Part shown: positions 1 through 36,115 of the stretch, one piece after another
How the letters are laid out: every line of letters begins with the position of its first letter
Position numbering within the stretch: the first letter of the stretch is position 1
Source: Candidatus Kuenenia stuttgartensis
GTDB taxonomy: Bacteria; Planctomycetota; UBA1135; UBA2386
Direction: 5' to 3'
Length of the DNA: 47,241 bases
Assembly: GCA_945861365.1 (NCBI GenBank)
Contig: CAMAUH010000001.1
Coordinates: 1-47,241 of the forward strand
Notes under the pieces: model-generated
The model's input: only the letters and a program-made list of their open reading frames with translations
What the model was told of the DNA's origin: nothing
Database searches by the model: none
Translations under genes and position numbers: made by a program

Positions 1-501
1 GAACGACGTCAGCGCACCGACCAACGTGTGCATCGCGACGCCGGCCAGCAGCAGCGTGGCGACCGCGAAGCGGCCGTTCGCGCGGGCGAGCACGAACACG
101 GCGCCGGTCACCAGCGACGCTCCGGCGAGCGAACACAGCGGCACCAGCAGCACGCCGAGCGCCGCCAGCTTCAGCACGATCGCGAGCGCGCCGCCGAACG
201 CCGCGCCGGCGGCCGTGCCGACCAGGTCGGGCGAGGCGAGCGGATTGCGGAACGTCGCCTGCATCACCGCGCCAGCCAGCGCCAAGGCCGCACCGCCGAA
301 CGCCGCGACCAGCAAGCGCGGCAGGCGGATGTCGCCGAGCACGAACGCGTCGACGCGCGGCAACGGCTCGGCACCGCACCAGGTGCCGAGCCATCGCAGC
401 ACCGCGGCGAAGCCCGGCCCTTCCCGCGCGACCGCGAGGAAGAGCACCGCCAGCACCGCCAGCGCGAGCAGCAGCAACCACGGCAACGCGGCGCGCTTCA
501 C
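1..501 (-). CDS. FecCD-family ABC transporter permease (BtuC/FhuB/HmuU-like), N-terminal part; the gene runs off the left edge
   Basis: Not in the ORF track because there is no stop inside the window. My translation of the minus strand from GTG 501-499 reads VKRAALPWLLLLALAVLAVLFL...DIRLPRLLVAAFGGAALALAGAVMQATFRNPLASPDLVGTAAGAAFGGALAIV...LLLAGVAMHTLVGALTSF. The RLPR...LAGxxMQxxFRNPLAsPxxxG block is the hallmark N-terminus of FecCD permeases. GTGA start/stop overlap with the binding-protein gene. Confidence 0.8.
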   Translation of the reverse strand, partial: MKRAALPWLLLLALAVLAVLFLAVAREGPGFAAVLRWLGTWCGAEPLPRVDAFVLGDIRLPRLLVAAFGGAALALAGAVMQATFRNPLASPDLVGTAAGAAFGGALAIVLKLAALGVLLVPLCSLAGASLVTGAVFVLARANGRFAVATLLLAGVAMHTLVGALTSF

Positions 502-1376
502 GGCTTGCCCCATTGCAGCAGCTCTCGCTGCAGGAACTCGGCGGCCTCGACCAGCCGGTGGGACGTCGTGTTGAACAAGGCGCCCGGCGCCCGCACCACC
601 CGCCGCGCTTCGACACACGGCAACATCGGGATCACCGGATGCTGCCGGATCCACGCCGGCAGTTCGGCACCTTCGGCCTCGCTCGCGCTGACGACGAGGG
701 CGTCCGGTTGCCAGCCCAGCAGCGCTTCGACATCCAGCTTGCGGAACGGTCCGACCCCGCGTTCGACGGCCTCGCAGCGGGCGCCGGCGGCGGCCACCAG
801 CGCGGCGAACAACGAGCCCTTGCCGTAGGTGTGCAGGCCGCCATCGAGGTTCATGACCCGCCACGCCGCAACCTCGGGTGCGCGCACCTGCAGCGCCCGC
901 AAGCGCTCCTGCATCACGGCGACCAGCTGCTCAGCAGCGGGTTCGAGGTGGCAGAGCCGCCCGATGTGGCGCAGGTTCGCGGCGATGTCGTCGAAACTGC
1001 CCGGGTTGCCCGTGACGACCACCGGCACATCGGCCGCGGACAGCAGCGCCAGCGTCTCCGGCCGCGTGAACGCGTCGCAGATCACCAGATCCGGCCGCAC
1101 CGCGAGCAGCTGTTCGGGTTCGGCGCCAACGGCCGGCAGGCCCTTCGCTGCGTCGACGACCAGCGAGTAGCGCGGGTCGGCAGCGAGCACGTGCACCCCG
1201 GCGATGCGTTCGCGCGGCGCGATCGCCAGCAACACCTCGGTCGCCAGCACCGAGGCCGCGACGATCCGCTGCGGGGGACTGGTCGGCCGCCAACCAGCTT
1301 CGCGCCACGGCTGCTTCGCATCGCACGCCGTGAACAGGAACGCGGCGGTCAGGGTCAGCGGCAGGAGCGAGGGCAC
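498..1376 (-). CDS. ABC transporter periplasmic substrate-binding lipoprotein, BtuF/FhuD/HmuT (cluster A) type
   Basis: ORF 498..1469. The likely start is GTG 1376, 7 nt after the upstream stop. It gives the lipoprotein signal VPSLLPLTLTAAFLFTAC (lipobox LFTAC). The body (RIVAASVLATEVLLAI, PDLVICDAF, VPVVV, LLGWQPDALVV) fits iron-siderophore/heme/cobalamin binding proteins. A FecCD permease follows. Confidence 0.75.
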   Translation of the reverse strand: MPSLLPLTLTAAFLFTACDAKQPWREAGWRPTSPPQRIVAASVLATEVLLAIAPRERIAGVHVLAADPRYSLVVDAAKGLPAVGAEPEQLLAVRPDLVICDAFTRPETLALLSAADVPVVVTGNPGSFDDIAANLRHIGRLCHLEPAAEQLVAVMQERLRALQVRAPEVAAWRVMNLDGGLHTYGKGSLFAALVAAAGARCEAVERGVGPFRKLDVEALLGWQPDALVVSASEAEGAELPAWIRQHPVIPMLPCVEARRVVRAPGALFNTTSHRLVEAAEFLQRELLQWGKP

Positions 1377-1383
1377 GTCCGCA

Positions 1384-2637
1384 TCATCGGCCCTCGGGTT
1401 TCTGCGGCAACGGGAAGGACGGTCCCTGTTCCGCATCCTTGGCGCCCTTCTGTTCGGACCACGGCGCATCGAGCAGTGCTACCGGACCGATCGTCTCGAC
1501 AACATCGCCCTTGGCACGGCGCACGGTCAGCGTCACGGCATCGCCGCCGAGCTTGCCGTTCACCAGCATCTGCAGGTGTGGCCCATTGCGCACCGCGATG
1601 CCATCGACCGCGGTGATGACGTCGCCGGCGAGCAGGCCGGCCTTCGCCGCAGCACCGGTCTCGTTGGTCTGGCCGAGCCTGGCGCCAGGGCCGAGGAACT
1701 TCGCATCGAGCTTCACGCCGAGCCAGCCGCGCTGCAGCACCTGGCCCTGCCGCATGCGCGCGAGCAACGGCTCGATGTCCGCGATCGTCGCCGCGAAGCC
1801 GATGCCCGAGTCGTACCACTCGACGCCGGCGTTGCGCCCCGACGGCGACAGCGGCACCGCGATGCCGAGCACGCGACCCTGCACGTCGACGACCGGGCCA
1901 CCGTAGTTCGCCGGCGACGTGTAGGCATCAACCTGCAGCGCGCGACCGAACAGCCGCTGCTTCGCGCTGACGATGCCGAGATGCAGCGTCGGTTCGTCCG
2001 CCGCGAACGTGCGTCCGAGCGCCATCGCCCACTGGCCCACCTGCACCTGGTCCGGATGCACGAACTCCGGCACCGGCAGCCCCATCGCGGCGATCTTGAC
2101 CAGCGCGATGCCGCGGCTGGTGTCCTCACCGGCGCGCTCGGCGCGGAACGTGCCGCGGCCGGGCACCGTGACCAGCACCGTCGTCGGATCCAGGTTCATC
2201 GCGAAGCGCGACACGACGATCCACCCGTCGCTGGTCAGCACGACGCCGGTGGTGCGACCGAGCGCCTGCTTGAAGCCCTCGGCGACCAGCGGCTTCTTCT
2301 TCCGTTCGGCTTCCTTGGGGTCCGCCGGCTCCTTCGGGCCGTCGGGATCGCTGTGGTCGGGCTCCGGTTCGGGCGGGCCGTCCGGCTTCGGCTCGACCTT
2401 CGGCTTCGGTGGCTCCTTCGGCGGCGGCGGCACGTCGCCGTCGAAGTCGCCATCGGTGCCGCTGACCCGCCGCGTGCCGCCGAACGTCTCGATCGTCACC
2501 GTGAACGTCGCCGCCTTGGCGAGCGCCTGTTGCACGATCGGCTCCAGCCGCAGGAACTCGTCGGCATCAACGCCGCGCTGCGCCGCCGCCGTCGCCGCCA
2601 GCACACTCGCCGCCAGCATCGCGTGGAACGTGTTCAC
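1384..2637 (-). CDS. HtrA/DegP-like trypsin-fold + PDZ protein with all three catalytic residues replaced (predicted pseudoprotease)
   Basis: ORF 1384..3102. Start taken at GTG 2637 (GTGA overlap with the upstream stop); ATG 2619 is an alternative. Contains a signal peptide, a Pro/Lys/Glu linker (PPPPKEPPKPKVEPKPDGPPEPEPD) and a PDZ domain (GWLGVKLD...AGLLAGDVITAVDG). Triad positions: GWIVVSRFAM (His->Phe), SRGIALVKI (Asp->Gly), ANYGGPVVD (Ser->Tyr). Confidence 0.8.
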   Translation of the reverse strand: MNTFHAMLAASVLAATAAAQRGVDADEFLRLEPIVQQALAKAATFTVTIETFGGTRRVSGTDGDFDGDVPPPPKEPPKPKVEPKPDGPPEPEPDHSDPDGPKEPADPKEAERKKKPLVAEGFKQALGRTTGVVLTSDGWIVVSRFAMNLDPTTVLVTVPGRGTFRAERAGEDTSRGIALVKIAAMGLPVPEFVHPDQVQVGQWAMALGRTFAADEPTLHLGIVSAKQRLFGRALQVDAYTSPANYGGPVVDVQGRVLGIAVPLSPSGRNAGVEWYDSGIGFAATIADIEPLLARMRQGQVLQRGWLGVKLDAKFLGPGARLGQTNETGAAAKAGLLAGDVITAVDGIAVRNGPHLQMLVNGKLGGDAVTLTVRRAKGDVVETIGPVALLDAPWSEQKGAKDAEQGPSFPLPQKPEGR

Positions 2638-3686
2638 TTGGGCTCCTTGCCGAGTTCGACCTCGCCGGTCAGCACCTGCGTGCCACGCTTCCAGGTGACC
2701 TTGACCTTCTGCCCCGGCGCGAACTTGCCGAGGATCTCGCGGTACTCGCGGCAGGTGCGCGTCGAGAAGTCGTCGAGGCGCACGATCATGTCGTCGACGC
2801 GCAGGCCGAGCGTCGCGGCAGGCGAACCGGCGACCACGCGCTCGATGTACGCCGGCGGCGACTGCCGACCCGCCTTGTCGAACAGCACCGCGCCGAACCA
2901 CGCCGGCTCCTTCACCACGGTGACTTCTTCGCGCCGCTTGCCGTGGATGACCTCGTCGAGGTACGGCAGCAGATCGCGCGCGGGGATCGCCGCCGACAGC
3001 ATCGTGTTGGTCTCCTTGCTGTCGAGCAGCCGCATGTTGAGGCCGATCCAGCGACCATCCAGCGTGAACAGCCCGCCGCCGTACTGGCCGGGGTTGTTGC
3101 ACGCATCGGTCAGGATCAGGTCGCCGTCGTACTTGACGTCGCTCATGCGGTAGCGCAACGCGGTGTTGGCGCGGCCGACGACGACGCCGAACGTGGCGCT
3201 GACCTTCTCGGAGAACTCAGCGAGGCGGAAGCAGTTGCCGAGCGACACCACGAACTGCCCGCTGCGGAACGCGCCGGCATCGCCGATCGCTGGCCACAGC
3301 GGGCGCAGTTCGCACTGCACGAGCTTCGGGTCGATCTTCAGCAGCCGGATGCCGAGCGTCTGGTCCGGCGGCAGCAGCTCCGCCGGGTGCACCGAACCGT
3401 CGTAGAGCACGACGCGCGTGCGATCCTTCTGCAGCAGGATCTGGTCGAGCGTCAGCACGTGGCCCTCCTTGCTGACCAGCACGCCGCTGGCGTAGGCGTC
3501 GATCGTCGCCAGGCCCGATGCGCCGTGGATCTTCACGAGGCTCGGCAGCAGCGCGTCGATCGTGCGCTCGACGGCGGTCGAAGGCGCCCGTTCGGCGAAC
3601 GAGTAGGCCTTGCCGAAGTCCTGCGTCCGTGCGGCGAGCGGCAGCGCCAGCAGCGCGGCGACGGACAGTCCATGGAACGCGCGCAT
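2634..3686 (-). CDS. HtrA/DegP-like trypsin-fold + PDZ protein with all three catalytic residues replaced (predicted pseudoprotease)
   Basis: ORF 2634..4190. Start ATG 3686 gives the signal peptide MRAFHGLSVAALLALPLAARTQ (TGATG junction with the upstream stop). PDZ domain: AYIERVVAGSPAATLGLRVDDMIVRLDD. Triad positions: GHVLTLDQIL (His->Gln), TLGIRLLKI (Asp->Gly), NPGQYGGGLF (Ser->Tyr). Confidence 0.8.
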   Translation of the reverse strand: MRAFHGLSVAALLALPLAARTQDFGKAYSFAERAPSTAVERTIDALLPSLVKIHGASGLATIDAYASGVLVSKEGHVLTLDQILLQKDRTRVVLYDGSVHPAELLPPDQTLGIRLLKIDPKLVQCELRPLWPAIGDAGAFRSGQFVVSLGNCFRLAEFSEKVSATFGVVVGRANTALRYRMSDVKYDGDLILTDACNNPGQYGGGLFTLDGRWIGLNMRLLDSKETNTMLSAAIPARDLLPYLDEVIHGKRREEVTVVKEPAWFGAVLFDKAGRQSPPAYIERVVAGSPAATLGLRVDDMIVRLDDFSTRTCREYREILGKFAPGQKVKVTWKRGTQVLTGEVELGKEPK

Positions 3687-5401
3687 CAGCCTTCCCTCCG
3701 GAACCACGCTTCGTCGACGTCGGTGACCTTGCGCGGCGCGCAGGTCCAGCCGGTTTCCAGCTTGCCGTCGACGACGACGCGCACGCGTTCGCCGCGCAAG
3801 TGCCACTCGACCTTCGCCTTGCGCACCGGATCGCGGAACCGGCAACCCGCGGGCGAGCCATCGCGGAAGAACCACGCTTCGCATTCGCCGTCGCCGGGAA
3901 GCTCGAAGCGCAGCGCCGGCGCGCCCTGCACGTGCAGGCCGCCGAGCAGCAGCGCAGGCTCGAGGCGGGCCGGCGCGGCGCTGAGCGACCACAGCAGCGG
4001 GTTGGCGGTGAACTCGCGGCGCAGCCGTTCGGCCTCGTCCGCCGTCAGCTCGCGCACCTTGCCACCCTCGCGCGCGAAGCCGCGGCCTTCGCCTTCGCGC
4101 ACCAGCACCAGTTCGCCGAGATCGAGCCGCAGCCGTTCGCCGTGGGCGATCGCGCCGATGACCGTGCCGTCGGGTGCGGTGCGATGCCACTGCAAGGCGC
4201 CAGGCGGCTCGGTGCTCGCCGGCCAGCGCGCGCGCAGTGCGGCCGTCGCGATGCGACGCTCGGCGCGGCTCGCCAGACGCGCGTCCGTGCCATCGCGGCT
4301 CGAGCCGGTGTCCAACCGCGACAGCTGCAGCGTCACGCGCCGTTCGTCACCGAACTGGCCTTCGCCGCGCAGCGGCTTGTGCCACAGCGTGACCCACGCG
4401 CCAGCTGGCAGCACGCCGACCATCGTCGCCAGCTGGTTCGCCGAGCGCACCTCGACGCCATCGAAGCGCGTGATCTCGTCACCGAGCCCGACGCCGACCA
4501 GCGCCGACACCGAATCCTTGAACAGTTGCTGCACGAACACGCCGCGACGCTGTTCGCCTTCGGCCTTCGAGCCCATGAACCACGCGCTGAGGTCGAGCGT
4601 GCCGTGTTCGGCGTGGCGACCCGCGATCAGGTCGGCGAGGAAGTTGTTGATCTGGTTGCTGGCGATCGCGAAGCCGACGCCGACGTTGACGCGCCCGCGG
4701 TCGCCGATCGAGATGCGGCCGTTGATGCCGACCACCTCGCCCGCCTCGTTGAACAACGGGCCACCGCTGTTGCCGGGGTTCACCGCCGCATCGACCTGGA
4801 TGCAGTCGGGGTAGACCAACATGCGCTGGCCGCCGCCTTCCTGGTACCGGTGCGTGCCCGACACGATGCCGAACGTCACCGTCGGTGTGAAATCGGTCGC
4901 GAGCAGGAACGGGTTGCCCATCGCGAACACGGTCTGGCCGACCAGCAGCTGGTCGCTGTCGCCGAGCTCCCGGAACGGCCACGTCTGGCCTTCGCGCTTC
5001 GGCAGCATGCGCAGCACCGCGAGGTCGCTGCCGGGATCGACGCCGAGCACCACCGCCTCGTACAGCTCACCGTCGGGCAGGCCGATCTTCTTGTTGCGCC
5101 AGTGTTCGGCGCCGCTGGCCTTGTTCTCGCGCCGCCAGACCTCGAGCTCGGCCGCCGGCAGCTCGGGCTCGCTCGGCGTGTAGCCCTCGTCGGGACCGCC
5201 GACGACGTGGAAGTTCGTCAGCACGTAGCCGCGCGGATCGAAGACCACGCCGCTGCCGCCGCCGGGCGCGTCCATCGACATCACCGAGCAGACGGCGGGC
5301 GCGCAGGCAGCGACGACCGCGACGCGCCGGGCCTCGCTCGCCTGCACCGCAGCGAGCGGGTCCTGCATGCCGCACGAAGCGAGCAGAAGGGCGAGCATCA
5401 T
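3686..5401 (-). CDS. S1C serine protease (HtrA/DegP/DegQ family) lipoprotein, intact catalytic triad, PDZ plus unknown C-terminal extension
   Basis: ORF 3686..5464. ATG 5401 gives the lipoprotein signal MMLALLLASCG. The triad is intact: GYVLTNFHVV (His), GSDLAVLRM (Asp), NPGNSGGPLF (Ser). A PDZ-like region (GLGDEITRFDGVEVRSANQL) is followed by roughly 230 aa with no motif I recognise. Confidence 0.88.
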   Translation of the reverse strand: MMLALLLASCGMQDPLAAVQASEARRVAVVAACAPAVCSVMSMDAPGGGSGVVFDPRGYVLTNFHVVGGPDEGYTPSEPELPAAELEVWRRENKASGAEHWRNKKIGLPDGELYEAVVLGVDPGSDLAVLRMLPKREGQTWPFRELGDSDQLLVGQTVFAMGNPFLLATDFTPTVTFGIVSGTHRYQEGGGQRMLVYPDCIQVDAAVNPGNSGGPLFNEAGEVVGINGRISIGDRGRVNVGVGFAIASNQINNFLADLIAGRHAEHGTLDLSAWFMGSKAEGEQRRGVFVQQLFKDSVSALVGVGLGDEITRFDGVEVRSANQLATMVGVLPAGAWVTLWHKPLRGEGQFGDERRVTLQLSRLDTGSSRDGTDARLASRAERRIATAALRARWPASTEPPGALQWHRTAPDGTVIGAIAHGERLRLDLGELVLVREGEGRGFAREGGKVRELTADEAERLRREFTANPLLWSLSAAPARLEPALLLGGLHVQGAPALRFELPGDGECEAWFFRDGSPAGCRFRDPVRKAKVEWHLRGERVRVVVDGKLETGWTCAPRKVTDVDEAWFRREG

Positions 5402-5429
5402 GGGGAAGGTGGGCCAAGAGGCCCGGGGA

Positions 5430-6650
5430 TCACTGCTGCAGCACGCGCGCGTCGGCGAACGCACAGTGGTCGCCGAGGTCGTAGTTCTTGCCGAAGTCCG
5501 CTTCGATCGCGAGCGACTTCGCCTTCTTCAGATCGACGCGCACGGCCTGCGCCGCTTCACCGCGCGTCATCGGTGCCGACTCGAACGCGACCGCGCCGTC
5601 GACCAGCACGCGGAACACCGCGTGCGCTTCGGGCCCACCGCGGTCGTCGATGCCGATCATCGCTTCGAAGCGATCGAAGCGGCCGCCGAGGTCGTAGGTC
5701 AGGCGGGTGCGCGGCACCATGCCGATGCCGCGCGAGAACGTGCGGCCGGCGAGCTGGAAGCCACTGCCGCCGAGCGAGCGACCGTTGGTCCAAGGCCACG
5801 TGCGATCGAACGCCGGCGTCTGCTGCGCTTGCGGCTGCAGGTCCTGCAGCCACGCGAGGCGATCGCTGGCGACCGTCACGCGCAGCAGCTTGGCGGCCTG
5901 CACGGTGAGCTCGACACCTTCGTCGAGGCGCAGGCGCGCGCTGCCGCCGTCGAGGCCGAGCAGCTTGCCTTCGAACTGTTCGCCGGTGGTCAGCTCGAGC
6001 CGGGTGCGTGGCTTCTGCTGGCGATCGGGCGCCACGCCGGTGTTGTCGCCGAACACGATCGCGGCGACGCCGCCGAGTTCGAACTCGTACGCATCGCCGC
6101 GCAGCAGGAAGTCGACCGTGTCGGTGCCGACCGAAGTCACCGCCACCGCCGAACGCTGCGCCTTGCCGTCCTTGACGACGTACAGCAGGTCCTCGTTGGC
6201 GGCCGGCTTCTTCAGGTCTGCGGCGAACAGGGTCGGCTCGGGGCGCCCGTCGCCGCCTTGCCGCAGCGCGCGCAGCGTCGCGATCGGCAACTCGAACGTG
6301 ATGCCACTCGGCAGTTCGAGCGCGACGCGGGCCGGTTTGCCGGCCGCGACGGCGACGCCGGCGATGCGCGTGCAGGCGAACTCGCCGCCCGAACGCAACC
6401 ACACCCGATGCGGTGCCGTCACCAACACGGCGGCCGCACCCGCCGGCTCGAACCCGGCGATCTCGGCCAGCGCGAGCGCGGTCTCGCCTTGCGAACCACC
6501 GACCTTCGCGTTGCCTTCGGCATCGACCGTCAGCGTGCCCGCGAGGGAGCGGCCATCGATCGTGCTGGTGATGCCAGCGAGGCCTTGGGCAGGAGCGCCG
6601 ACCGCGAGGGCCAGCGCGAGTACCAGCGAGCGACTACGTGCGCGGCTCAC
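5430..6650 (-). CDS. Secreted protein with repeated beta-rich modules and a C-terminal NPCBM-type domain
   Basis: GTG start at 6650 (GTGA overlap with the upstream stop). Signal peptide MSRARSRSLVLALALAVGAPAQG. C-terminus: FSRGIGMVPRTRLTYDLGGRFDRFEAMIGIDD...VFRVLVDG...LAIEADFGKNYDLGDHCAFADARV, which is typical of NPCBM/NEW2 modules. No glycoside hydrolase catalytic domain is attached. Confidence 0.7.
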   Translation of the reverse strand: MSRARSRSLVLALALAVGAPAQGLAGITSTIDGRSLAGTLTVDAEGNAKVGGSQGETALALAEIAGFEPAGAAAVLVTAPHRVWLRSGGEFACTRIAGVAVAAGKPARVALELPSGITFELPIATLRALRQGGDGRPEPTLFAADLKKPAANEDLLYVVKDGKAQRSAVAVTSVGTDTVDFLLRGDAYEFELGGVAAIVFGDNTGVAPDRQQKPRTRLELTTGEQFEGKLLGLDGGSARLRLDEGVELTVQAAKLLRVTVASDRLAWLQDLQPQAQQTPAFDRTWPWTNGRSLGGSGFQLAGRTFSRGIGMVPRTRLTYDLGGRFDRFEAMIGIDDRGGPEAHAVFRVLVDGAVAFESAPMTRGEAAQAVRVDLKKAKSLAIEADFGKNYDLGDHCAFADARVLQQ

Positions 6651-9684: not shown

Positions 9685-9742
9685 GGGTTCCTCGCTGGGT
9701 ACGACCCGCATTGCGGGCCATCGGTCGGTTCGGGCTCTGCTG

Positions 9743-14457: not shown

Positions 14458-14470
14458 GGTCGTCTCGCCG

Positions 14471-16708: not shown

Positions 16709-16715
16709 CGTGGTC

Positions 16716-17753
16716 TCAGCGCTGGTAGATCGGGGCGTAGGAGTAGGGCAGCAGCAGGATCGTCAGCGCGATCGCGGTGCCGTACACGGTGCCGACGCCG
16801 TCGCCTTCCCAGCTGCCGTCCTTCTTCTGCTGGCGCAGCAGCCACGCCGCCTTCTTGTCGAGGTAGCCGGTCCAGTCGGCGCCGCCGCGCTGGTAGAGCG
16901 CCTGGCTCCAGTAGAGGTGCGTGTAGAAGTGGTGGCCGGTGTTGTCGACGCTGACCTGGATCTGCTTCTTGCAGTACTGCACGGCCTTCTCGACGAACGG
17001 CTGGTCGTCGTACATGCCGGCGTTGTAGAGCACCGCGACGCCGGCCGCGGTGATGGCCGGGCGCCCTTCGCCACCGGAGTTGAGGCTGTAGCGGATGCTG
17101 CCGTCGCCGTTCTGGCACTTCTTGATGTAGTCGACGGCGCGATCGATCGTCTTCTTGTCGACGGCGATGCCGGCCATGCGGCACGCGCGCAGCGCCTGGA
17201 TCTGCGTCACGGTGACGCTGCCTTCGTCGCTGTTCGAATCGGGCGTGTAGATCCAACCGCCGGCCGACGACTGCGCCGAACTGATCAGGCCGACCGCCTT
17301 GTCGAGCACGCGCTTGAGCCGCTCCTGCTTCTTGACGTCCTCCTCCATGCCGAACACCGAGGCGAGGAACAGCGTCGCGAAGCCGTGGCCATACATGCCG
17401 CGGCCTTCCTCGGCGGGCACCGAGATGACGCCGGAGTTGGGATCGGCGTGCTTCAGCAGGAAGTCGACCGAGTCGCGCACCTGCTGCCAGTGCTTGCCGC
17501 GCGTCGGCGTCGAGCCGCTGGCGATGAACGCCATGCCGGCGAGCCCGGTCATCGCCGCCGGATAGCTGCCGTAGCCGCCGGAGTTGCGCCAGCTGCCGTC
17601 GTTGGCCTGATTGCGCGCGAGCCAGTCGAGGCCGCGCTGCACCGCTTCGTGGATCTCCTTGGTGACGCCGGGCGGGTAGACGACATCCTGCGCGGGCGCG
17701 AGCCCCCCGATCGCGAGTGCCAGCAGCCAGGGAGCGAGTCGCGTGCGATGCAT
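16716..17753 (-). CDS. Secreted prenyltransferase/squalene-cyclase-like QW-repeat (alpha/alpha toroid) protein, paralog B
   Basis: ORF 16716..17915. ATG 17753 gives the signal peptide MHRTRLAPWLLALAIGGLAPAQD. QW-type repeats: NQANDGSWRN, SAQSSAGGWIY, CQNGDGSIRY, QQKKDGSWEG. Confidence 0.75.
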   Translation of the reverse strand: MHRTRLAPWLLALAIGGLAPAQDVVYPPGVTKEIHEAVQRGLDWLARNQANDGSWRNSGGYGSYPAAMTGLAGMAFIASGSTPTRGKHWQQVRDSVDFLLKHADPNSGVISVPAEEGRGMYGHGFATLFLASVFGMEEDVKKQERLKRVLDKAVGLISSAQSSAGGWIYTPDSNSDEGSVTVTQIQALRACRMAGIAVDKKTIDRAVDYIKKCQNGDGSIRYSLNSGGEGRPAITAAGVAVLYNAGMYDDQPFVEKAVQYCKKQIQVSVDNTGHHFYTHLYWSQALYQRGGADWTGYLDKKAAWLLRQQKKDGSWEGDGVGTVYGTAIALTILLLPYSYAPIYQR

Positions 17754-17755
17754 GA

Positions 17756-18784
17756 TCAACGTTGGTAGATGGGGACGTAGGCGTACGGCAGATGCAGGAT
17801 CAGCGACGCGACCGCGGTGCCGTAGACCGGACCGACCGCATCGCCTTCCCAGCTGCCGTCGGCGCGCTGCTGCTGACGCAGCCAGTCGCCGAGCTGTTCC
17901 TGGTGCACGGCCCACGGCCGTTCGCCGCGCCGGTAGAGAACCTGGCTCCAGTACAGCTGCGTGTAGAAGTGGTGGCCGGTGGTGTCGACCGTCGCGCGCA
18001 CGTGCTGCTGGCAGTAGCGCATGGCCTTCTGCACGAACGGCGAATCGTCGGCGACGCCCGCGTCGTGCAGCACCGCGAGTCCGGCGGCGGTGATCGCTGG
18101 GCGGCTCTCACCCGCCATGCCGAGCCGATAGCGGATGCCGCCGTCGTCGTTCTGGCAGCGCTCGATGTAGGCGATCGCACGATCGACGACGCGCTTGTCG
18201 ACGACGAGGCCGGCCATGCGGCACGCGCGCAGCGCCTGCATCTGCGTCACGGTGACGCTGCCCTCGTCGGTGTTGTCGGTCGGCTGGTAGTACCAACCGC
18301 CCGCCGGCGACTGCGCTGACGCGATCAACGCGATGGCGCGATCGAGCACGCGCTTCAGCCGTTCCTGCTGCCGGCGGTCCTCCTCCATGCCGTAGACCGA
18401 CGCGAGCAGCAGCGTCGCGAACCCGTGCGCGAACATCGGCTGCGAGTCCTCGGCGACGTTGGCGAGCAGCCCCGTGGTCGGATCCGCCTGCTTCAGCACG
18501 TAGTCGACCGCGTCGCGCACCTGCCGCCAGTACTTGCCGCGCGTCGGCGTCGAGCCAGCCGTCACGAACGCCATGCCAGCGAGGCTCGTCATGGCCACCG
18601 GATAGCCACCGTGCGCGCCGTGGTTGCGCCAGCTGCCATCGCTGGCCTGATGGCGTGCGAGCCACTCGAGACCGCGGTTCGCGACGGCCTGCAGCTCGGG
18701 CGTGACGCCGCTCGGCAGCGCATTGCTCTGGGCGACGGCGAGCGTGGCGGTCAGCGCCGCGGCGATCAGCGAGCGAAGGCTCAT
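17756..18784 (-). CDS. Secreted prenyltransferase/squalene-cyclase-like QW-repeat (alpha/alpha toroid) protein, paralog A
   Basis: Part of ORF 17756..20782. ATG 18784 (ATGA overlap) gives MSLRSLIAAALTATLAVAQS. QW-type repeats: HQASDGSWRN, SAQSPAGGWYY, CQNDDGGIRY, QQRADGSWEG. Collinear with the downstream paralog along the full length. Confidence 0.75.
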   Translation of the reverse strand: MSLRSLIAAALTATLAVAQSNALPSGVTPELQAVANRGLEWLARHQASDGSWRNHGAHGGYPVAMTSLAGMAFVTAGSTPTRGKYWRQVRDAVDYVLKQADPTTGLLANVAEDSQPMFAHGFATLLLASVYGMEEDRRQQERLKRVLDRAIALIASAQSPAGGWYYQPTDNTDEGSVTVTQMQALRACRMAGLVVDKRVVDRAIAYIERCQNDDGGIRYRLGMAGESRPAITAAGLAVLHDAGVADDSPFVQKAMRYCQQHVRATVDTTGHHFYTQLYWSQVLYRRGERPWAVHQEQLGDWLRQQQRADGSWEGDAVGPVYGTAVASLILHLPYAYVPIYQR

Positions 18785-21570
18785 CCCTTGCCTTCCATGC
18801 AGGCGTAGAGCCGTTCCTGCTCGCGTTCGTGCGCGCGCAGGTCGCCGACTTCCTTGCACAGCTCGACGCGCGCGAGCAACCAGTCGAGGCGCTGGTCGCG
18901 TTCGCGCATCAGGGTGTCGATCGTGTCGAACGCGACGAGTGCGCCGGGCAGGTCGCCGCCGCGCGCGAGGCGCGCCGCCCGTTCGCGCACGAGGCCGAGC
19001 AGCAGCCCGCCGAGTGCGTGGCGACGTTCGGCCGCGAGGTCGGTGGCGGCGAGGGCCTGCACGAGCACCTGCTCGGCAGCGGGCCCATCGCCGGCCTGGG
19101 CCATGTACTGCGCCCGCTGCAGCGGATCGGCCGTCGTGGCGGCGAACGCCTGCAGCGCCGACTTGCTGCTGTAGACCTCGACGCCGCCAGGGTGCCCGAC
19201 CGCCAGCCATGGCCCCGCGGCGGTGACGTGGCAGGAACCCGCATAGGGCTCGCGGCTGGCGTCGAACGACGGCAGCTGCAGACGGCGCATCGGCTGCTGG
19301 CCAGCAGCGTCGAAGACCAGCAGCTCGCGCTGGTTCGGGATCACGATCTGGTCGCCGACGATGGTGCCGCGGCCGCGACCCACCGGCTTCGAACCGTTCC
19401 ACACCGGCAGTTCGCGGGCCTGCTTCACGAGGCCGCCGGAAAGGCTGACCGTCACCAGATGCGTGTCGGACAGCGCGAACAGGTCGTCGCCGACGGCGCC
19501 GATCAGCATGCGCAGGCGACCGCACTCCTTGGTCACGTAGCGCGAGCCGGCATCCAGCATCCAGACCGGCTTGCCGGTCGACCCGTCGATGCACAACAGC
19601 ACGTCGCCGTCGCACGGCGCCACCACGACGAGGCCATCGCGCACCACCAGGTCGTTCGGCAGGAAGCTCGTCAGTTCGAGCTGCGCGAACTGCGGCGTGT
19701 AGTCCTCCGACTGGCCGCGCGCCCGCTTGGCGCGGGCGGTCTTGTGCACCGGATCGATGCGCTCGTAGCGACGCACCCAGCGCAGATCCCCGGCGAACGC
19801 ATCGATCGCGGCGAGGCAGCCGGCGTTGGTGGCGACGTAGGCGATGCCCGCCGAGACGACGACCTGGCAGCCCGGCGCCTTGAAGAACGGCGAGCCGCCG
19901 CCGTGGATCGGCGTGTGCCACAGGGGCCGGCCGGTGCGGCGGTCGACGCATTCGAGCGAGTACTCGCCGCGGCGCAGCGCCGGCAGCAGCAGGCGTTCGC
20001 CGAACAACGTCGGTGCGGCCAGGAACGTCACGTCGCGCAGGCCGGCCTCGCCATCGAGCCACTGCGCCGACGACCACGCGCGCCGCTGCAGATCGCGCTC
20101 GTAGGCGATCAGTTCGCTCGCCTTCAGCGGCTCGGGGCTGCTGGTGGTCGCGCGGCCGTGACCGACCACTGCGTAGCGACGTTCCTCGTCCTCGAGCGGG
20201 CGCAGCAGTGCGAAGTCGCTGCTGGCGATGCGCACACGCGGGTGGTTCTCGCGCGGCGGCGACGGCTCTTCGACGCCATCCCCCTGCGCGACCTGCACGC
20301 CGGAAGCGGCCTCGGCCAGACGCAGGCGGTAGTGCTCGAAGAACAGCGTGCGCGGCAGGCTGCCGCGCGGCGCCGCATCGGTCGCGAACGCCACCGTGGT
20401 GCCAGGCCCGTAGCGGCCGGCGAACGGCATCGCATTGGGGCTCTGGCCCTGTTCGAAGAAGATGTTGCGGCCGCTGTCGTTGCTCGACTTCGGGTCCTTG
20501 TAGGGCTCCGGATTGCGGAAGCGGTACTGCCACAGGGGCAGCAGTTCCTCGGTGTCGGCGGCGAGCCACGACGGGCCACTGCTGGTCGGCGCACGCCGGT
20601 TCACCGCGATCTCGTCGGTGGCGAACAGCGAGTTGTTCGGCAGGTCCTTCACCGCCTGCAGTTCGCCCAGCACGCGCAGCGACTCGTCGGCGTGCGCCGC
20701 CGCCATCGCCACCACGGTCGCGTGCGCGGCCTCGAGCTCGCCCGCGAAGCGCAGGCACAGCGCGATCTTGAACTTGCACCACACGTCGCTGATGCCGAGC
20801 CGCTTCCGGTTGTCGGCCGGATAGATCTCGAGCAGGTCGCGCAGCACCTGCACCGCGGCGCGGTAGCGGCCCTCGTGCATCAGGCGATCGGCCAACAGCG
20901 TCATCGCACGACCGGCGGCCAGCGTCACGAAGTAGCGCGTGGTGACCTGCTCGAGCTCACCGACCGACCCGCTGGCGATGGCCTGCTGCAGCAGCTCGTC
21001 GGCCGGGACTTCGAAGTTGGTGCGGTAGATCTCGATGCCGACCGCCGGCATGCGCGCCAGCAGTTCGTGGCACAGGCGGTAGACCGGGCGATACAGCCGG
21101 CCATCCTGGCTGAACACCGAGTTGCGGGCATCGCGCGCGTGGCGGTGCTTGGGGCGGGGTGGCGCTTCGCCGTCGGCGGGCGCGACCGGCTTGCGGGCTG
21201 CCGACTGCGGCGCATCCGACTTGGGCTCGCCGGTAGCCGGCTCGACGGGTTTGGCCGGCGTCGCTTCGACCACGACCGTGCGCCCGTCGACGACGTCCTG
21301 CAGCACCTTGATCGCCGCCGCGTAGTCCTCGCGCCCGAGGAAGGCCTGCGCGTTGTTGAGGTAGCGGTCGATGTTCGAGTTCTCGAACATCTCGACCGGC
21401 GTACCGGGGTCGTCGGTGGCAGCGCCCTCGGCCTGGCCGGCGATCGCGCCGACCGGTGCAATCGCCCGCACCTGCTGGGCATGCGCCATTGCCGCGATGG
21501 CGAGCGAAACCCCCATGACGAGCATGGGCGTACGCAGCGATGGCAGCACGGGGATGCGTTCCATTCTCAC
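18781..21570 (-). CDS. Secreted TPR + PQQ-like (BamB-like) beta-propeller repeat protein; first gene of the operon
   Basis: 929-aa ORF starting at GTG 21570. ATG 21564 or the internal MLVMGVSLAIAAMAHAQQ are alternative starts. TPR-like helices (NNAQAFLGREDYAAAIKVLQDVV; HEGRYRAAVQVLRDLLEIYP). Propeller strands (GRPLWHTPIHGG...GIAYVATNAGCLAAIDAFAGDLRWV; DGLVVVAPCDGDVLLCIDGSTGKPVWM). Confidence 0.7.
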   Translation of the reverse strand: MRMERIPVLPSLRTPMLVMGVSLAIAAMAHAQQVRAIAPVGAIAGQAEGAATDDPGTPVEMFENSNIDRYLNNAQAFLGREDYAAAIKVLQDVVDGRTVVVEATPAKPVEPATGEPKSDAPQSAARKPVAPADGEAPPRPKHRHARDARNSVFSQDGRLYRPVYRLCHELLARMPAVGIEIYRTNFEVPADELLQQAIASGSVGELEQVTTRYFVTLAAGRAMTLLADRLMHEGRYRAAVQVLRDLLEIYPADNRKRLGISDVWCKFKIALCLRFAGELEAAHATVVAMAAAHADESLRVLGELQAVKDLPNNSLFATDEIAVNRRAPTSSGPSWLAADTEELLPLWQYRFRNPEPYKDPKSSNDSGRNIFFEQGQSPNAMPFAGRYGPGTTVAFATDAAPRGSLPRTLFFEHYRLRLAEAASGVQVAQGDGVEEPSPPRENHPRVRIASSDFALLRPLEDEERRYAVVGHGRATTSSPEPLKASELIAYERDLQRRAWSSAQWLDGEAGLRDVTFLAAPTLFGERLLLPALRRGEYSLECVDRRTGRPLWHTPIHGGGSPFFKAPGCQVVVSAGIAYVATNAGCLAAIDAFAGDLRWVRRYERIDPVHKTARAKRARGQSEDYTPQFAQLELTSFLPNDLVVRDGLVVVAPCDGDVLLCIDGSTGKPVWMLDAGSRYVTKECGRLRMLIGAVGDDLFALSDTHLVTVSLSGGLVKQARELPVWNGSKPVGRGRGTIVGDQIVIPNQRELLVFDAAGQQPMRRLQLPSFDASREPYAGSCHVTAAGPWLAVGHPGGVEVYSSKSALQAFAATTADPLQRAQYMAQAGDGPAAEQVLVQALAATDLAAERRHALGGLLLGLVRERAARLARGGDLPGALVAFDTIDTLMRERDQRLDWLLARVELCKEVGDLRAHEREQERLYACMEGKG

Positions 21571-21592
21571 CAGGGGCCCGGGGTCGAGAGCC

Positions 21593-21619
21593 GCACGACG
21601 TGGACAACGAGCGTCGTGC
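21593..21619. promoter_or_regulatory. 8-bp perfect inverted repeat in the divergent control region
   Basis: GCACGACG-tggacaacgag-CGTCGTGC. Lies 23 nt upstream of the operon's first start codon on the minus strand, so it is a possible operator or 5' leader hairpin. Confidence 0.3.
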
Positions 21620-21805
21620 TGGAGCGGATCAGAGGGCGGACTCTACGTCGGGTGCCGATCGACGGCGAGCACCCCAGACCCATTCCCGCCGAATGAACTC
21701 CGGGATGATTCCAGCGGTTCCTACGTCTGCGTACCCCGCGGGCCACTCGGTCCGCACCGGCTCGGGCAACCCGCCCGCGCCTCGCATTCCCGCATGGACC
21801 CCACC

Positions 21806-21811
21806 TAGACT
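21806..21811 (+). promoter_or_regulatory. Candidate -10 element TAGACT (TAnnnT)
   Basis: It is embedded in CACCTAGACTG and ends 10 nt before ATG 21822. The same 11-mer recurs at 41004..41014 upstream of the HNH gene. Confidence 0.2.
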
Positions 21812-21821
21812 GCTCGACCGG

Positions 21822-26026: not shown

Positions 26027-26029
26027 GGC

Positions 26030-36109: not shown

Positions 36110-36115
36110 CCTGGC

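What the first reader, a model, noticed from the sequence alone, without database searches (positions are those of the whole stretch)
1..21570. A 15-gene, ~21.5-kb Bat-like envelope operon with no MoxR ATPase or DUF58 gene, carrying protease, toroid, coiled-coil and importer modules
**Seen in the sequence**
- Fifteen consecutive minus-strand genes run from 21570 past position 1.
- Gene junctions are ATGA (18781-84, 11956-59, 7696-99), GTGA (6647-50, 2634-37, 498-501) or TGATG (3684-88), or gaps of 2, 7, 13, 58, 28 and 7 nt.
- The upstream boundary is a 251-bp divergent region.
- Gene order:
  - TPR + PQQ-like propeller;
  - two secreted QW-repeat toroid proteins;
  - BatA_N double-TM VWA protein (MIDAS DDSAS);
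  - second 2-TM VWA protein (DTSQS) with a GATase1-like domain;
  - large 2-TM membrane protein;
  - 662-aa coiled-coil protein;
  - TPR-like protein;
  - NPCBM protein;
  - intact HtrA lipoprotein;
  - two triad-dead HtrA paralogs;
  - BtuF-type binding lipoprotein;
  - FecCD permease.
- Almost every product has a signal peptide, lipobox or TM anchor.

**Established knowledge**
- BatA/BatB-type VWA membrane proteins (Bacteroides bat operon, MoxR-VWA pairs) normally follow a MoxR AAA+ ATPase gene and a DUF58 gene.
- Neither gene is in this operon. The only P-loop I can find in the window is ParA.

**Inference**
- This may be one envelope-spanning assembly that couples VWA and coiled-coil membrane scaffolds to a periplasmic proteolytic module and an importer.
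- I know of no characterised system with this composition.
Basis: partly seen in the sequence, partly recalled or inferred. Interest (0 to 1): 0.8.

Follow-up and report, generated by a model that had tools for sequence, protein, structure and literature searches.

The report
Rearranged Bat-like envelope gene cluster
This is a real, tightly packed run of 14 genes for membrane and periplasmic proteins, but it is a rearranged lineage version of a cluster conserved in Planctomycetota and found in a Verrucomicrobiales genome that elsewhere starts with the "missing" MoxR and DUF58 genes, and in many relatives one of its proteins appears to be an unannotated selenoprotein.

Summary
The sequence-level observation holds. 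Every junction, domain call, MIDAS motif and dead HtrA triad is as described, and the only P-loop in the window is ParA. There are 14 genes, not 15.

Gene order G1-G12 is colinear in 47 species-level Planctomycetota genomes (G6 identity 47-72%) and in a relative at 33%. The BtuF/FecCD importer follows in about two thirds of loci, so it is accessory. A divergently transcribed HEAT+propeller gene (G0, 21822-24113) also belongs to the unit.

The headline claim, "no MoxR/DUF58", is true only in cis and only for this lineage. Homologous clusters in Pirellula staleyi, Phycisphaeraceae and Verrucomicrobiales run MoxR-DUF58-BatA-PQQ/HEAT-(toroid)-VWA-G6-G7. Two further Planctomycetia MAG loci start at DUF58 and continue G8-NPCBM-three HtrA. 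The window is therefore a rearranged variant of an uncharacterised Bat-type envelope supercluster. Whether the ATPase pair is encoded elsewhere in these genomes could not be tested.

Unexpected finding: in 32 of 47 orthologues of the coiled-coil protein G7, one or two in-frame TGA codons replace the window's Cys580/Cys584. A conserved hairpin follows, built from rare codons. This is the signature of selenocysteine.

The parts
21822..24113 (+). G0: secreted HEAT-repeat + beta-propeller protein (763 aa), transcribed divergently from G1. It is part of the conserved unit.
   Evidence: Pfam HEAT_2 plus Arylsulfotran(_2) propeller hits. A signal peptide is readable. The gene lies divergently upstream of G1 in 21 loci. 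Its C-terminus is homologous to the C-terminus of the giant PQQ/HEAT proteins inside type-A clusters L052-L054.
21571..21821 (.). 251-bp divergent intergenic region between G0 and G1. It is the presumed promoter region for both.
   Evidence: Coordinates verified. No sigma-70-type site was found in 1-20000, which is not informative for this phylum.
18781..21570 (-). G1: secreted TPR-like + PQQ-like beta-propeller protein (929 aa).
   Evidence: PQQ_2 at 2.4e-11 and TPR_19 weak. Conserved as the first gene in all type-B loci. A 929-aa PQQ_2 counterpart sits inside the Verrucomicrobiales cluster L055.
17756..18784 (-). G2: secreted alpha/alpha-toroid (QW-repeat) protein (342 aa).
   Evidence: SQHop_cyclase_C 7e-11 and Prenyltrans 6e-7. 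NCBIfam cyclase models score far below their cut-offs (48 vs 323 bits). Copy number varies between one and two among relatives.
16716..17753 (-). G3: second secreted toroid protein (345 aa), a paralogue of G2.
   Evidence: Homologues occur in the clusters or their flanks in L055 (between PQQ and VWA), L058 (directly upstream of MoxR) and L054 (upstream of MoxR).
14471..16708 (-). G4: membrane protein (745 aa) with a BatA_N double-TM domain, VWA (MIDAS DDSAS), CARDB, a ThuA/GATase1-like domain and a C-terminal TM helix.
   Evidence: BatA 9e-17 and TIGR02226 3e-20, plus VWA_2, CARDB and ThuA. The DxSxS motif and the cytoplasmic loop residues are invariant across type A and type B.
11956..14457 (-). 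G5: full-length paralogue of G4 (833 aa), with two N-terminal TM helices, VWA (MIDAS DTSQS) and a C-terminal TM helix.
   Evidence: hhalign of A5 against A4 gives probability 98.9% over 671 columns. VWA is weak by Pfam. DxSxS is conserved.
9743..11959 (-). G6: membrane-anchored protein (738 aa) with no Pfam family. It has a TM hairpin, a helical domain, a beta-sandwich region and a C-terminal helical bundle.
   Evidence: AlphaFold2 mean pLDDT 92.8. Foldseek finds only generic Ig/MG-domain arrays at TM <= 0.2. The family has 7222 clusters at 50% identity with E <= 1e-3. No Pfam hits on 12 close members or on 10 distant ones.
7696..9684 (-). G7: secreted coiled-coil / low-complexity protein (662 aa) with a conserved C-terminal helix.
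   Evidence: No Pfam hit for the window protein. Relatives give marginal DUF4175 hits to positions 518-793 of that model (L056 6e-8, L011 2e-4). In many relatives gene callers split it into 566-583 aa plus about 70 aa at an in-frame TGA.
7933..7947 (-). Cys580-x3-Cys584 motif of G7 (C-N-G-Q-C). These are the positions occupied by in-frame TGA (putative selenocysteine) in 32 of 47 orthologues.
6647..7699 (-). G8: secreted TPR-like protein (350 aa).
   Evidence: TPR_16 at 1.7e-5, below the Pfam cut-off. Conserved in position in type A (L052, L053) and type B.
5430..6650 (-). G9: secreted protein (406 aa) with a C-terminal NPCBM carbohydrate-binding module.
   Evidence: NPCBM at 2.7e-28. Conserved in position in types A and B.
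3686..5401 (-). G10: lipoprotein HtrA-type serine protease (571 aa) with an intact H-D-S triad.
   Evidence: Trypsin_2 at 6e-32 and degP_htrA_DO at 1.6e-57. The triad is kept in 40 of 41 aligned orthologues; the remaining one is truncated. Lipobox LLASC.
2634..3686 (-). G11: secreted HtrA-like pseudoprotease + PDZ (350 aa). Triad positions are Q/G/Y.
   Evidence: It is fused to the G10 orthologue in L053 (968 aa) and L056 (978 aa).
1384..2637 (-). G12: secreted HtrA-like pseudoprotease + PDZ (417 aa). Triad positions are F/G/Y.
   Evidence: Also dead in the type-A loci L052 and L053.
498..1376 (-). G13: BtuF/FhuD-type substrate-binding lipoprotein. An accessory neighbour, not a core gene.
   Evidence: Peripla_BP_2 at 5.7e-18. 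The lipobox LFTAC follows the GTG start at 1376. Present after G12 in about 22 loci and absent in about 9.
1..501 (-). G14: FecCD/BtuC-type ABC permease, truncated by the window edge. Accessory.
   Evidence: FecCD at 8.7e-28. It travels with G13.

Best explanation
**What it is**

The region is a lineage-specific, rearranged version ("type B") of a large envelope gene cluster conserved in Planctomycetota and found in one Verrucomicrobiales genome.

- The ancestral-looking form ("type A") runs MoxR - DUF58 - BatA/VWA - PQQ/HEAT propeller - (toroid) - second VWA paralogue - G6 - G7 - G8 - NPCBM - one live and two dead HtrA.
- In the window's lineage the MoxR-DUF58 pair is not at the head.
- The propeller gene is split into a divergent pair (G0, G1) placed in front.
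- One or two toroid genes sit between G1 and the BatA gene.

**How it most likely works (inferred)**

The products build one periplasm-facing assembly anchored in the inner membrane.

- G4 and G5 each have TM helices at both ends and a metal-dependent (MIDAS) VWA adhesion domain in the periplasm.
- G6 is also membrane-anchored and carries a beta-sandwich stalk and a helical bundle.
- Together they hold the long coiled-coil protein G7, the propeller/solenoid proteins G0 and G1, the toroid proteins, the TPR-like G8 and the glycan-binding G9.
- A mixed HtrA oligomer (one active and two catalytically dead subunits) processes or quality-controls components or clients.
- The strictly conserved cytoplasmic loop of the BatA_N domain is the likely contact for a cytoplasmic MoxR-DUF58 pair. 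In this lineage that pair would have to be encoded elsewhere.
- A single reactive cysteine or selenocysteine in the flexible linker of G7 adds a redox-sensitive or cross-linking site in this lineage.

The physiological role is probably envelope organisation or integrity, as proposed for other Bat/MoxR-VWA operons. It is not established.
For: **Shown**
- Tight junctions, with 7 start/stop overlaps and gaps of at most 58 nt.
- Terminator-like sites number 5, against 9.4 +/- 3.1 in shuffles.
- G1-G12 are colinear in every locus long enough among 47 GTDB species (G6 identity 47-72%) and in L056 at 33%.
- Type-A clusters contain homologues of G4, G1, G0, G2/3, G5, G6, G7, G8, G9 and G10-12 in the same relative order, headed by MoxR-DUF58. 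Examples:
  - L054, Pirellula staleyi DSM 6068.
  - L058, Phycisphaeraceae.
  - L055, Verrucomicrobiales.
  - L052 and L053, which start at DUF58 where the locus is cut.
- Gene fusions in relatives link components. The G10 and G11 orthologues are one 968-978-aa protein in L053 and L056. G1-like and G0-like parts are one 1300-1500-aa protein in type A.
- MIDAS DxSxS is invariant in G4 and G5.
- BatA_N loop residues (H25, N28, R30, W37, N50, R53, E57 and others) are invariant across types A and B.
- The HtrA pattern of one live and two dead copies is conserved in both types.
- All products carry export or membrane signals.
- No defence-system match was found.

**Background**
- Bat proteins have been proposed to form a periplasmic complex, with MoxR postulated to load the MIDAS metal (PMC3557215).
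Against: - No experiment or transcript data exist for any member.
- Assembly into one complex is inferred only from synteny, fusions and topology.
- Whether type-B genomes encode MoxR/DUF58 elsewhere was not testable. If they do not, the energy-coupling part of the model fails for this lineage.
- G6 has no detectable family or structural homologue beyond generic beta-sandwich arrays.
- The function of Bat operons is itself unresolved. Leptospira bat mutants had no phenotype (PMC3557215).
- One type-B genome (L023) lacks the three HtrA genes, so the protease module is not absolutely required.
Confidence: 0.6

Rival explanations
1. This is an autonomous, ATPase-independent envelope system of new composition. 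VWA and coiled-coil scaffolds, the HtrA module and the BtuF/FecCD importer work as one machine, and MoxR/DUF58 are truly dispensable.
For: - No MoxR or DUF58 occurs in 47 kb of the window or in about 1 Mb of type-B loci.
- The MoxR-less arrangement is stable down to 33% G6 identity.
- The importer directly follows G12, often with overlapping coordinates, in about 22 loci.
Against: - Homologous clusters in three other lineages start with MoxR-DUF58.
- The BatA_N cytoplasmic loop is invariant between types A and B. This argues that its cytoplasmic partner still exists.
- The importer is missing in about 9 loci with enough sequence and in the type-A locus L052.
Confidence: 0.12
2. The cluster is a periplasmic capture and retention apparatus for glycans or other macromolecules, matching the PVC habit of taking polymers into an enlarged periplasm. 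NPCBM and the propellers would bind substrate, the VWA/coiled-coil proteins would tether it, and HtrA would process protein moieties.
For: - A strong NPCBM carbohydrate-binding module sits at a conserved position.
- The propeller and toroid modules are typical binding scaffolds.
- The cluster was seen only in Planctomycetota and one Verrucomicrobiales genome.
Against: - No glycoside hydrolase, sulfatase, TonB-dependent or sugar transporter gene is conserved in the cluster.
- The only transporter is a facultative iron-chelate/B12-type importer.
- The idea is entirely inferential.
Confidence: 0.1
3. The cluster is a metal or cofactor handling system. The MoxR-VWA pair would act, as in NorQ/NorD, CoxD/CoxE or Mg-chelatase, to insert a metal or cofactor into a periplasmic client (for example the PQQ-like propeller). 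The chelate importer would supply the metal, and the Cys/Sec site of G7 would bind it.
For: - Intact MIDAS sites.
- PQQ-like propellers.
- A frequently linked BtuF/FecCD importer.
- Cys/Sec residues in a Gly-rich loop.
- Weak NCBIfam similarity of G10-G12 to MamE/MamO.
Against: - Cys/Sec number and spacing vary widely: CxxxC, CxC, UxxC, CxxU, CU, UxxxU, a single C or U, or none. That is a poor fit to a fixed metal site.
- The importer is facultative.
- PQQ_2 is a fold-level match also given by BamB, and no quinoprotein dehydrogenase signature was found.
Confidence: 0.1
4. There is no single system. The run is a chance juxtaposition of independent operons (Bat-like core, NPCBM gene, HtrA genes, ABC importer) on one strand.
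For: - G13-G14 come and go.
- L023 lacks the HtrA genes and L026 has a 3.5-kb insertion between G8 and G9.
- The largest gaps in the window (58 and 28 nt) precede G7 and G10.
Against: - The same families stay adjacent in the same order across type-A and type-B clusters in Planctomycetia MAGs and the window lineage. The upstream half is also kept in Phycisphaerae, Verrucomicrobiales and P. staleyi.
- Gene fusions link neighbouring components.
Confidence: 0.03

Closest known systems
Type-A clusters found here (uncharacterised): Pirellula staleyi DSM 6068 CP001848.1 about 3.476-3.499 Mb (L054), Phycisphaeraceae MAG JBBDMX010000093.1 (L058), Verrucomicrobiales MAG JAKVDA010000029.1 (L055), and Planctomycetia MAGs L052 and L053
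   Same: - Homologues of G4, G5, G6, G7, G8, G9, G10-12, G1/G0 and the toroid occur in the same relative order.
- MIDAS motifs are intact.
- The pattern of one live and two dead HtrA copies is the same.
   Different: - They start with MoxR (bpMoxR/AAA_3) and DUF58 directly upstream of BatA.
- The propeller/HEAT protein is one giant gene located after BatA.
- The toroid gene sits elsewhere or upstream.
- The G7 linker has no Cys/Sec in the two examples readable (L052, L053).
Bacteroides fragilis bat (aerotolerance) operon and the spirochaete Bat/MoxR clusters (PMC3557215, PMC5700661)
   Same: - BatA_N double-TM + VWA/MIDAS membrane proteins in tandem.
- TPR proteins and a predicted periplasmic complex.
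- Association with MoxR in the wider family.
   Different: - Classical BatA/BatB are described as shorter proteins without CARDB or ThuA-like domains (from memory).
- No G6, G7, NPCBM, toroid, propeller or HtrA genes are described there.
- MoxR and DUF58 are absent in cis here.
- BatD and BatE homologues were not found by Pfam.
Rhizobium leguminosarum RL3499-RL3502 operon (MoxR, DUF58, double-TM BatA_N protein, DUF4175 protein) needed for envelope integrity and cell shape. Recalled from memory (Vanderlinde et al. 2011) and not re-read here.
   Same: - A BatA_N/TIGR02226 membrane protein followed by a large membrane/coiled-coil protein.
- G7-type proteins give marginal DUF4175 hits.
- An envelope role is the best available functional analogy.
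   Different: - That operon has four genes and is ATPase-headed.
- G6 gives no DUF4175 hit.
- The PVC cluster has 8-10 extra genes.
MamE/MamO of magnetotactic bacteria: an active HtrA-type protease working with a degenerate paralogue. The biology is recalled from memory.
   Same: - An active trypsin-fold/PDZ protease is encoded next to catalytically dead paralogues.
- NCBIfam gives weak MamE/MamO matches.
- G10 and G11 orthologues are fused in some relatives.
   Different: - Scores are far below the family cut-offs (104 vs 800 bits).
- There are no magnetochrome domains.
- The context is unrelated.
Bacterial selenoproteins with a coding-region SECIS, such as E. coli fdhF. SECIS features are recalled from memory.
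   Same: - In-frame UGA is aligned with Cys in orthologues.
- A hairpin starts about 12 nt after the UGA. The main variant has the apical loop GGUCA on a G-C-rich stem.
- Sec and Cys forms are interspersed on the tree.
   Different: - The host is an exported coiled-coil protein, not an oxidoreductase fold.
- The residue lies in a Gly-rich linker.
- Up to two UGA codons lie 4-5 codons apart.
- No NCBIfam or Pfam family covers the window protein.
- The window itself has the Cys form.

Membership tests
Bat / MoxR-DUF58-VWA operon class | Membrane protein with the BatA_N (PF07584 / TIGR02226) N-terminal double-TM domain | tested here: met
   G4 scores BatA 61.7 bits (cut-off 25.9) and TIGR02226 72.2 bits (cut-off 23.05).
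Bat / MoxR-DUF58-VWA operon class | VWA domain(s) with an intact MIDAS DxSxS motif | tested here: met
   G4 has DDSAS and G5 has DTSQS. The motif is conserved in about 40 orthologues each, including type A. Pfam VWA scores are below the gathering cut-off.
Bat / MoxR-DUF58-VWA operon class | MoxR-type AAA+ ATPase (AAA_3) gene in the same operon | tested here: not met
   None occurs in the window or in any type-B locus (tblastn). It is present in the homologous type-A clusters L054, L055 and L058.
Bat / MoxR-DUF58-VWA operon class | DUF58 gene adjacent to the VWA genes | tested here: not met
   Absent from the window and from type-B loci. Present directly upstream of BatA in L052-L055 and L058.
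Bat / MoxR-DUF58-VWA operon class | MoxR/DUF58 encoded elsewhere in the same genome (trans) | not testable with these tools
Exact look-ups of window proteins failed.
DUF4175 (PF13779) | Significant match to the Pfam model | tested here: inconclusive
   G6 and 11 orthologues give no hit at E <= 1. The window G7 gives none. The G7 orthologue in L056 scores 31.6 bits (cut-off 27.3) and L011 scores 19.9 bits, both to the C-terminal coiled-coil part of the model only.
HtrA/DegP serine proteases | Catalytic His-Asp-Ser triad | tested here: met
   This row is for G10, which keeps H/D/S in 40 of 41 aligned orthologues; the remaining one is truncated. G11 (Q/G/Y) and G12 (F/G/Y) fail this feature and are pseudoproteases.
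HtrA/DegP serine proteases | C-terminal PDZ domain(s) | tested here: inconclusive
   G11 and G12 have PDZ_2/PDZ_6 above the cut-offs. G10 has no Pfam PDZ hit, and its 230-aa C-terminal extension is unassigned.
Squalene-hopene cyclase / prenyltransferase enzymes | Full-length match to the enzyme models | tested here: not met
   G2/G3 score 39-52 bits against cut-offs of 323-851 bits. They are 345 aa long against about 630 aa for the enzymes. Only QW-type repeats match. They share the fold class, not the enzyme family.
Bacterial selenoprotein (applies to G7 orthologues; the window has the Cys form) | In-frame UGA aligned with Cys in homologues, with the downstream reading frame conserved | tested here: met
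   32 of 47 distinct orthologous sequences have TGA at the positions of window Cys580/Cys584. The internal stop is always TGA. The following about 75 codons are conserved in frame, and in type A they are part of one ORF.
Bacterial selenoprotein (applies to G7 orthologues; the window has the Cys form) | SECIS-like stem-loop directly 3' of the UGA | tested here: met
   - The conserved two-tier hairpin is 92.9% paired, against 35-62% in slid controls. Three pairs show compensatory change (0 of 500 shuffles reach this).
- Rare codons are enriched only in Sec forms: GGT 43% vs 16% and CCA 46% vs 5%.
- Folding z-scores are modest, from -1.1 to -3.2.
- No Rfam family matches.
Bacterial selenoprotein (applies to G7 orthologues; the window has the Cys form) | selA/selB/selC/selD present in the genomes that carry the UGA form | not testable with these tools
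   The rest of those genomes could not be read. There is no tRNA in the window.
Type II ABC importer (BtuCDF / FecBCDE) | Cluster-A substrate-binding protein plus FecCD permease plus ATPase | tested here: inconclusive
   Peripla_BP_2 and FecCD are met. The ATPase would lie beyond position 1. Linkage to the cluster is facultative.

The most novel reading that the evidence does not exclude
Type-B clusters really do work without MoxR/DUF58. In this lineage the ATP-driven remodelling input has been replaced by a redox input through a reactive cysteine or selenocysteine acquired in the linker of the exported coiled-coil protein G7. The G7 orthologues would then be a previously unrecognised family of exported, non-enzymatic selenoproteins in Planctomycetota. 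The Cys/Sec site is present in nearly all type-B sequences and absent in the two type-A sequences that could be read.
Probability: 0.1. Interest if true: 0.85.

Novelty: new variant of a known kind. Interest (0 to 1): 0.58.

Why it matters
- **A large uncharacterised unit.** Bat/MoxR-VWA operons are widespread and still have no agreed function. This work shows that in Planctomycetota, and in a Verrucomicrobiales genome, the small Bat core is embedded in a conserved 12-14-gene unit. Its fixed partners are propeller/solenoid proteins, a toroid, a new membrane protein family (more than 7000 clusters at 50% identity), an NPCBM protein and a trio of one live and two dead HtrA.
- **A concrete parts list for experiments.** The type-A form occurs in a cultured organism, Pirellula staleyi DSM 6068.
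- **A natural experiment.** The window lineage lacks the ATPase pair in cis.
- **A likely selenoprotein.** The probable selenocysteine in G7 orthologues would place a redox-active residue in a periplasmic scaffold. That echoes the old proposal that Bat proteins handle periplasmic redox stress. It also means current annotations split this gene in two in most relatives.

Tried and rejected
- **Source contig.** Exact-sequence look-ups of window G11 and G4 were not on record. Only a 6.9-kb ENA fragment matches G6 at 100%.
- **G6 as DUF4175.** Rejected. No Pfam hit at E <= 1 on 12 orthologues or at E <= 0.01 on 10 distant relatives, although one NCBI record uses that name.
- **PDB sequence searches.** G4, G5 and the G6 profile gave nothing. 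The toroid gave only weak QW repeats.
- **Foldseek on the G6 model.** Only generic Ig/macroglobulin-domain arrays at TM <= 0.2. I gave no weight to the resemblance to alpha2-macroglobulin or complement, despite a weak TED_complement hit in G3.
- **Rfam around the UGA site.** No SECIS family matched.
- **Hairpin stability.** It does not separate Sec from Cys forms in this 70% G+C background. I relied on codon usage and pairing counts instead.
- **PADLOC.** No defence-system match.
- **Promoter/terminator scan.** Uninformative.
- **Literature.** No paper on this cluster was found.
- **Akkermansia MUL1 locus.** I suspected it might be Bat-like, but the primary paper is not held and secondary papers do not describe its domains. 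I dropped this lead.
- **Walking upstream in L052.** A homologue search solved it.
- **MoxR/DUF58 elsewhere in type-B genomes.** No available route. I ran no further search on it because the top-120 list would be dominated by other lineages.

Full report

The window has about 70% G+C over the region, so raw ORF lists are noisy. Third-position G+C profiling picks one clear frame per gene.

It gives 14 consecutive minus-strand genes between 21570 and position 1. I call them G1-G14:
- G1: 18781-21570
- G2: 17756-18784
- G3: 16716-17753
- G4: 14471-16708
- G5: 11956-14457
- G6: 9743-11959
- G7: 7696-9684
- G8: 6647-7699
- G9: 5430-6650
- G10: 3686-5401
- G11: 2634-3686
- G12: 1384-2637
- G13: 498-1376
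- G14: <1-501

Its own list has fourteen entries.

Pfam and NCBIfam confirm the domain calls:
- G1: PQQ_2, with weak TPR.
- G2/G3: squalene-cyclase/prenyltransferase-type toroid repeats, far below enzyme cut-offs.
- G4: BatA/TIGR02226 + VWA + CARDB + ThuA/GATase1-like.
- G5: weak VWA.
- G9: NPCBM.
- G10: Trypsin_2.
- G11/G12: Trypsin_2 + PDZ.
- G13: Peripla_BP_2.
- G14: FecCD.

Further checks:
- Signal peptides, two lipoboxes or TM helices are readable in every product.
- The rest of the window holds no AAA_3 or DUF58.
- The only credible Walker A is ParA's.

**2. Conservation**

G6, the central gene, has no family assignment. A homologue search found 189 relatives, all uncultivated Planctomycetota.

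A scan of one genome per GTDB species returned 47 loci with G6 identity of 47-72%. tblastn of all window proteins on these loci shows G1-G12 in the same order and orientation wherever the contig is long enough. Three exceptions:
- L023 lacks G10-G12.
- L026 has a 3.5-kb insertion between G8 and G9.
- No G12 was detected in L045.

The toroid gene is present once or twice. G13-G14 follow G12 in about 22 loci and are absent in about 9 that have more than 1.3 kb of sequence after G12. In L003, for example, a PMT_2 gene on the other strand follows. The importer is therefore a frequent neighbour, not a core part.

The divergently transcribed gene upstream (G0, 21822-24113, a secreted HEAT + propeller protein) is conserved in that position in 21 loci. 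It belongs to the unit.

**3. The missing MoxR/DUF58**

A profile of the G6 family against 1.84 billion representatives shows a large family: 7222 clusters at E <= 1e-3 and 1021 at E <= 1e-30. It has no Pfam coverage.

Contexts of distant members and of BatA-type homologues were decisive:
- Two Planctomycetia MAGs (L052, L053) run DUF58 - BatA/VWA/CARDB - giant PQQ+HEAT protein - VWA - G6-like - G7-like - G8-like - NPCBM - HtrA three times.
- After a homologue search with the L052 BatA protein, the full head of the cluster was read in three places:
  - Pirellula staleyi DSM 6068 (L054).
  - A Verrucomicrobiales MAG (L055).
  - A Phycisphaeraceae MAG (L058).
- Each has MoxR (bpMoxR/AAA_3) - DUF58 - BatA - PQQ - (toroid) - VWA - G6-like - G7-like.

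tblastn confirms homology of G0, G1, G2/3 and G4-G12 to these genes. MoxR and DUF58 from L054 and L055 hit nothing in the window or in any of the type-B loci.

The MoxR-less arrangement ("type B") extends to a relative with only 33% G6 identity (L056). The window is therefore a derived, rearranged variant of a cluster conserved in Planctomycetota and present in one Verrucomicrobiales genome, whose other known forms start with the ATPase pair.

Residues of the BatA_N cytoplasmic loop are invariant between the two types. I read this as indicating that the cytoplasmic partner persists, encoded elsewhere. That step is inference and could not be tested.

**4. Anatomy of the parts**

- **G5.** It is a full-length paralogue of G4 (hhalign 98.9%, 671 columns). 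Both have two N-terminal TM helices, VWA, a beta-sandwich, a ThuA/GATase1-like domain and a C-terminal TM helix. MIDAS DxSxS is conserved in both everywhere.
- **Topology.** The positive-inside rule puts the VWA domains in the periplasm. This is read from the sequence and is an inference.
- **G6.** AlphaFold2 with a 90-sequence alignment gives a confident model (pLDDT 92.8). It shows a TM hairpin and helical domain, a beta-sandwich region (207-541) and a roughly 190-residue helical bundle. Foldseek finds only generic Ig/MG arrays.
- **G7.** It is a secreted coiled-coil protein with a variable low-complexity middle and a conserved C-terminal helix. Some orthologues reach the DUF4175 model's C-terminal half marginally.
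- **The HtrA trio.** G10 keeps H-D-S in 40 of 41 aligned orthologues; the remaining one is truncated. G11 (Q/G/Y) and G12 (F/G/Y) are dead, and this also holds in type A.
- **Fusions.** The G10 and G11 orthologues are fused in L053 and L056. G1-like and G0-like parts are fused in type A. These fusions support physical association.
- **Defence systems.** There is no match.

**5. An unannounced selenocysteine site**

In relatives, gene callers split G7 into 566-583 aa plus about 70 aa in the same frame.

The main observations:
- Translating through shows that 32 of 47 distinct orthologous sequences carry one or two in-frame TGA codons at the positions of window Cys580 and Cys584. Variants are UxxC, CxxU, CU, UxxxU, UxxxxU and a single U.
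- The others have CxxxC, CxC or a single C. Two have none.
- The internal stop is always TGA.
- The following about 75 codons remain conserved in frame. In type A they are part of an uninterrupted ORF, though without Cys at that spot.

Evidence for an RNA element after the UGA:
- A hairpin starts about 12 nt after the UGA. The main variant is GGUGGC-GGUCA-GCCACC on a lower ACGAG/CUCGU stem.
- It is 92.9% paired across 30 distinct sequences, against 35-62% for slid controls. Three pairs show compensatory change.
- It is built from rare codons only in the TGA forms. GGT is 43% against a 16% baseline, and CCA is 46% against 5%. The Cys forms use CCG 82% of the time.
- Folding energies alone do not discriminate, and Rfam has no match.

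Sec and Cys forms are interspersed on a G6 tree. More distant type-B relatives have a single U (L057) or a single C (L056).

This is the classic signature of a bacterial selenoprotein. NCBIfam and Pfam have no model for the window protein. Presence of the sel genes could not be checked. The window itself carries the Cys form.

**6. What it most likely does**

The following are shown:
- A conserved, co-oriented set of extracytoplasmic proteins built around the BatA/VWA core.
- Fusions between neighbouring components.
- MoxR-DUF58 at the head in other lineages.

The following are inferred:
- One inner-membrane-anchored, periplasm-facing assembly.
- A mixed HtrA oligomer.
- A trans-encoded ATPase.
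- A redox or cross-linking role for the variable Cys/Sec site. Its variable number and spacing argue against a fixed metal site or a thioredoxin-like CxxC.

Bat proteins have been proposed to form a periplasmic complex that deals with oxidative damage, with MoxR loading the MIDAS metal. Leptospira bat mutants, however, showed no phenotype (PMC3557215). The physiological role therefore remains open.

**7. Verdict**

The sequence-level observation is sound apart from the gene count and the boundaries. Its headline is wrong: this is not a MoxR/DUF58-free class, and the importer is not integral. It is a new variant of a known kind. The value added is the conserved parts list and a probable new selenoprotein.

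Noticed in passing
window 7933-7947 (-), G7 Cys580/Cys584; for example L003:14002-14049, L001:14162-14215, L057:4237-4290: Orthologues of G7 carry one or two in-frame TGA codons exactly where the window has Cys. A conserved hairpin built from rare codons follows, and the downstream frame is conserved. These are probably unannotated selenoproteins that gene callers split into two ORFs. Sec and Cys forms are interspersed on the tree.
   Followed up: partly
window 21822-24113 (+): The divergently transcribed HEAT + beta-propeller gene (G0) is conserved next to G1 in 21 loci. It is homologous to the C-terminus of the giant PQQ/HEAT proteins inside type-A clusters.
   Followed up: yes
L053:16751-19657; L056:16475-19411: In two relatives the active HtrA (G10-like) and the first dead HtrA (G11-like) are fused into one 968-978-aa protein. 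This fusion suggests that the live and dead proteases act in one oligomer.
   Followed up: partly
window about 8814-8928 (-), G7 residues about 253-290: There are about seven tandem K-A-G-E-P pentapeptide repeats in G7. The corresponding stretch is GKPGE repeats in L052 and GGMQGGQQ repeats in L053. It looks like a fast-evolving low-complexity spacer of variable length.
   Followed up: no
window 1-21570 (-): All 13 stop codons of the cluster genes are TGA. UGA is thus the normal terminator in the same operon in which relatives appear to recode it.
   Followed up: no
L052:2738-6955, L053:3325-7356, L054:12453-18262, L058:6741-11291; window G1 and G0: The cluster's propeller + alpha-solenoid (HEAT/TPR) proteins are 1300-1500 aa in type A. 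They have the domain composition used to define PVC "membrane-coat-like" proteins, one of which was localised to the paryphoplasm (PMC2799638). Whether any published MC-like protein is encoded in this cluster was not checked.
   Followed up: no
window 24242-28348 (-): Next to G0 and convergent with it lies a run of a Peptidase_M48 protein (594 aa), an unassigned 351-aa protein and a 400-aa LemA-domain protein. This looks like another small envelope-related unit. Its conservation was not examined.
   Followed up: no
window about 35000-47241: G+C falls from about 0.69 to about 0.62-0.65 after about 35 kb. This part holds parA (Walker A at 37568) and parB (38208-39143), a cyclophilin-domain protein and a HemN-like radical SAM gene. 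The cause of the compositional shift is unknown.
   Followed up: no
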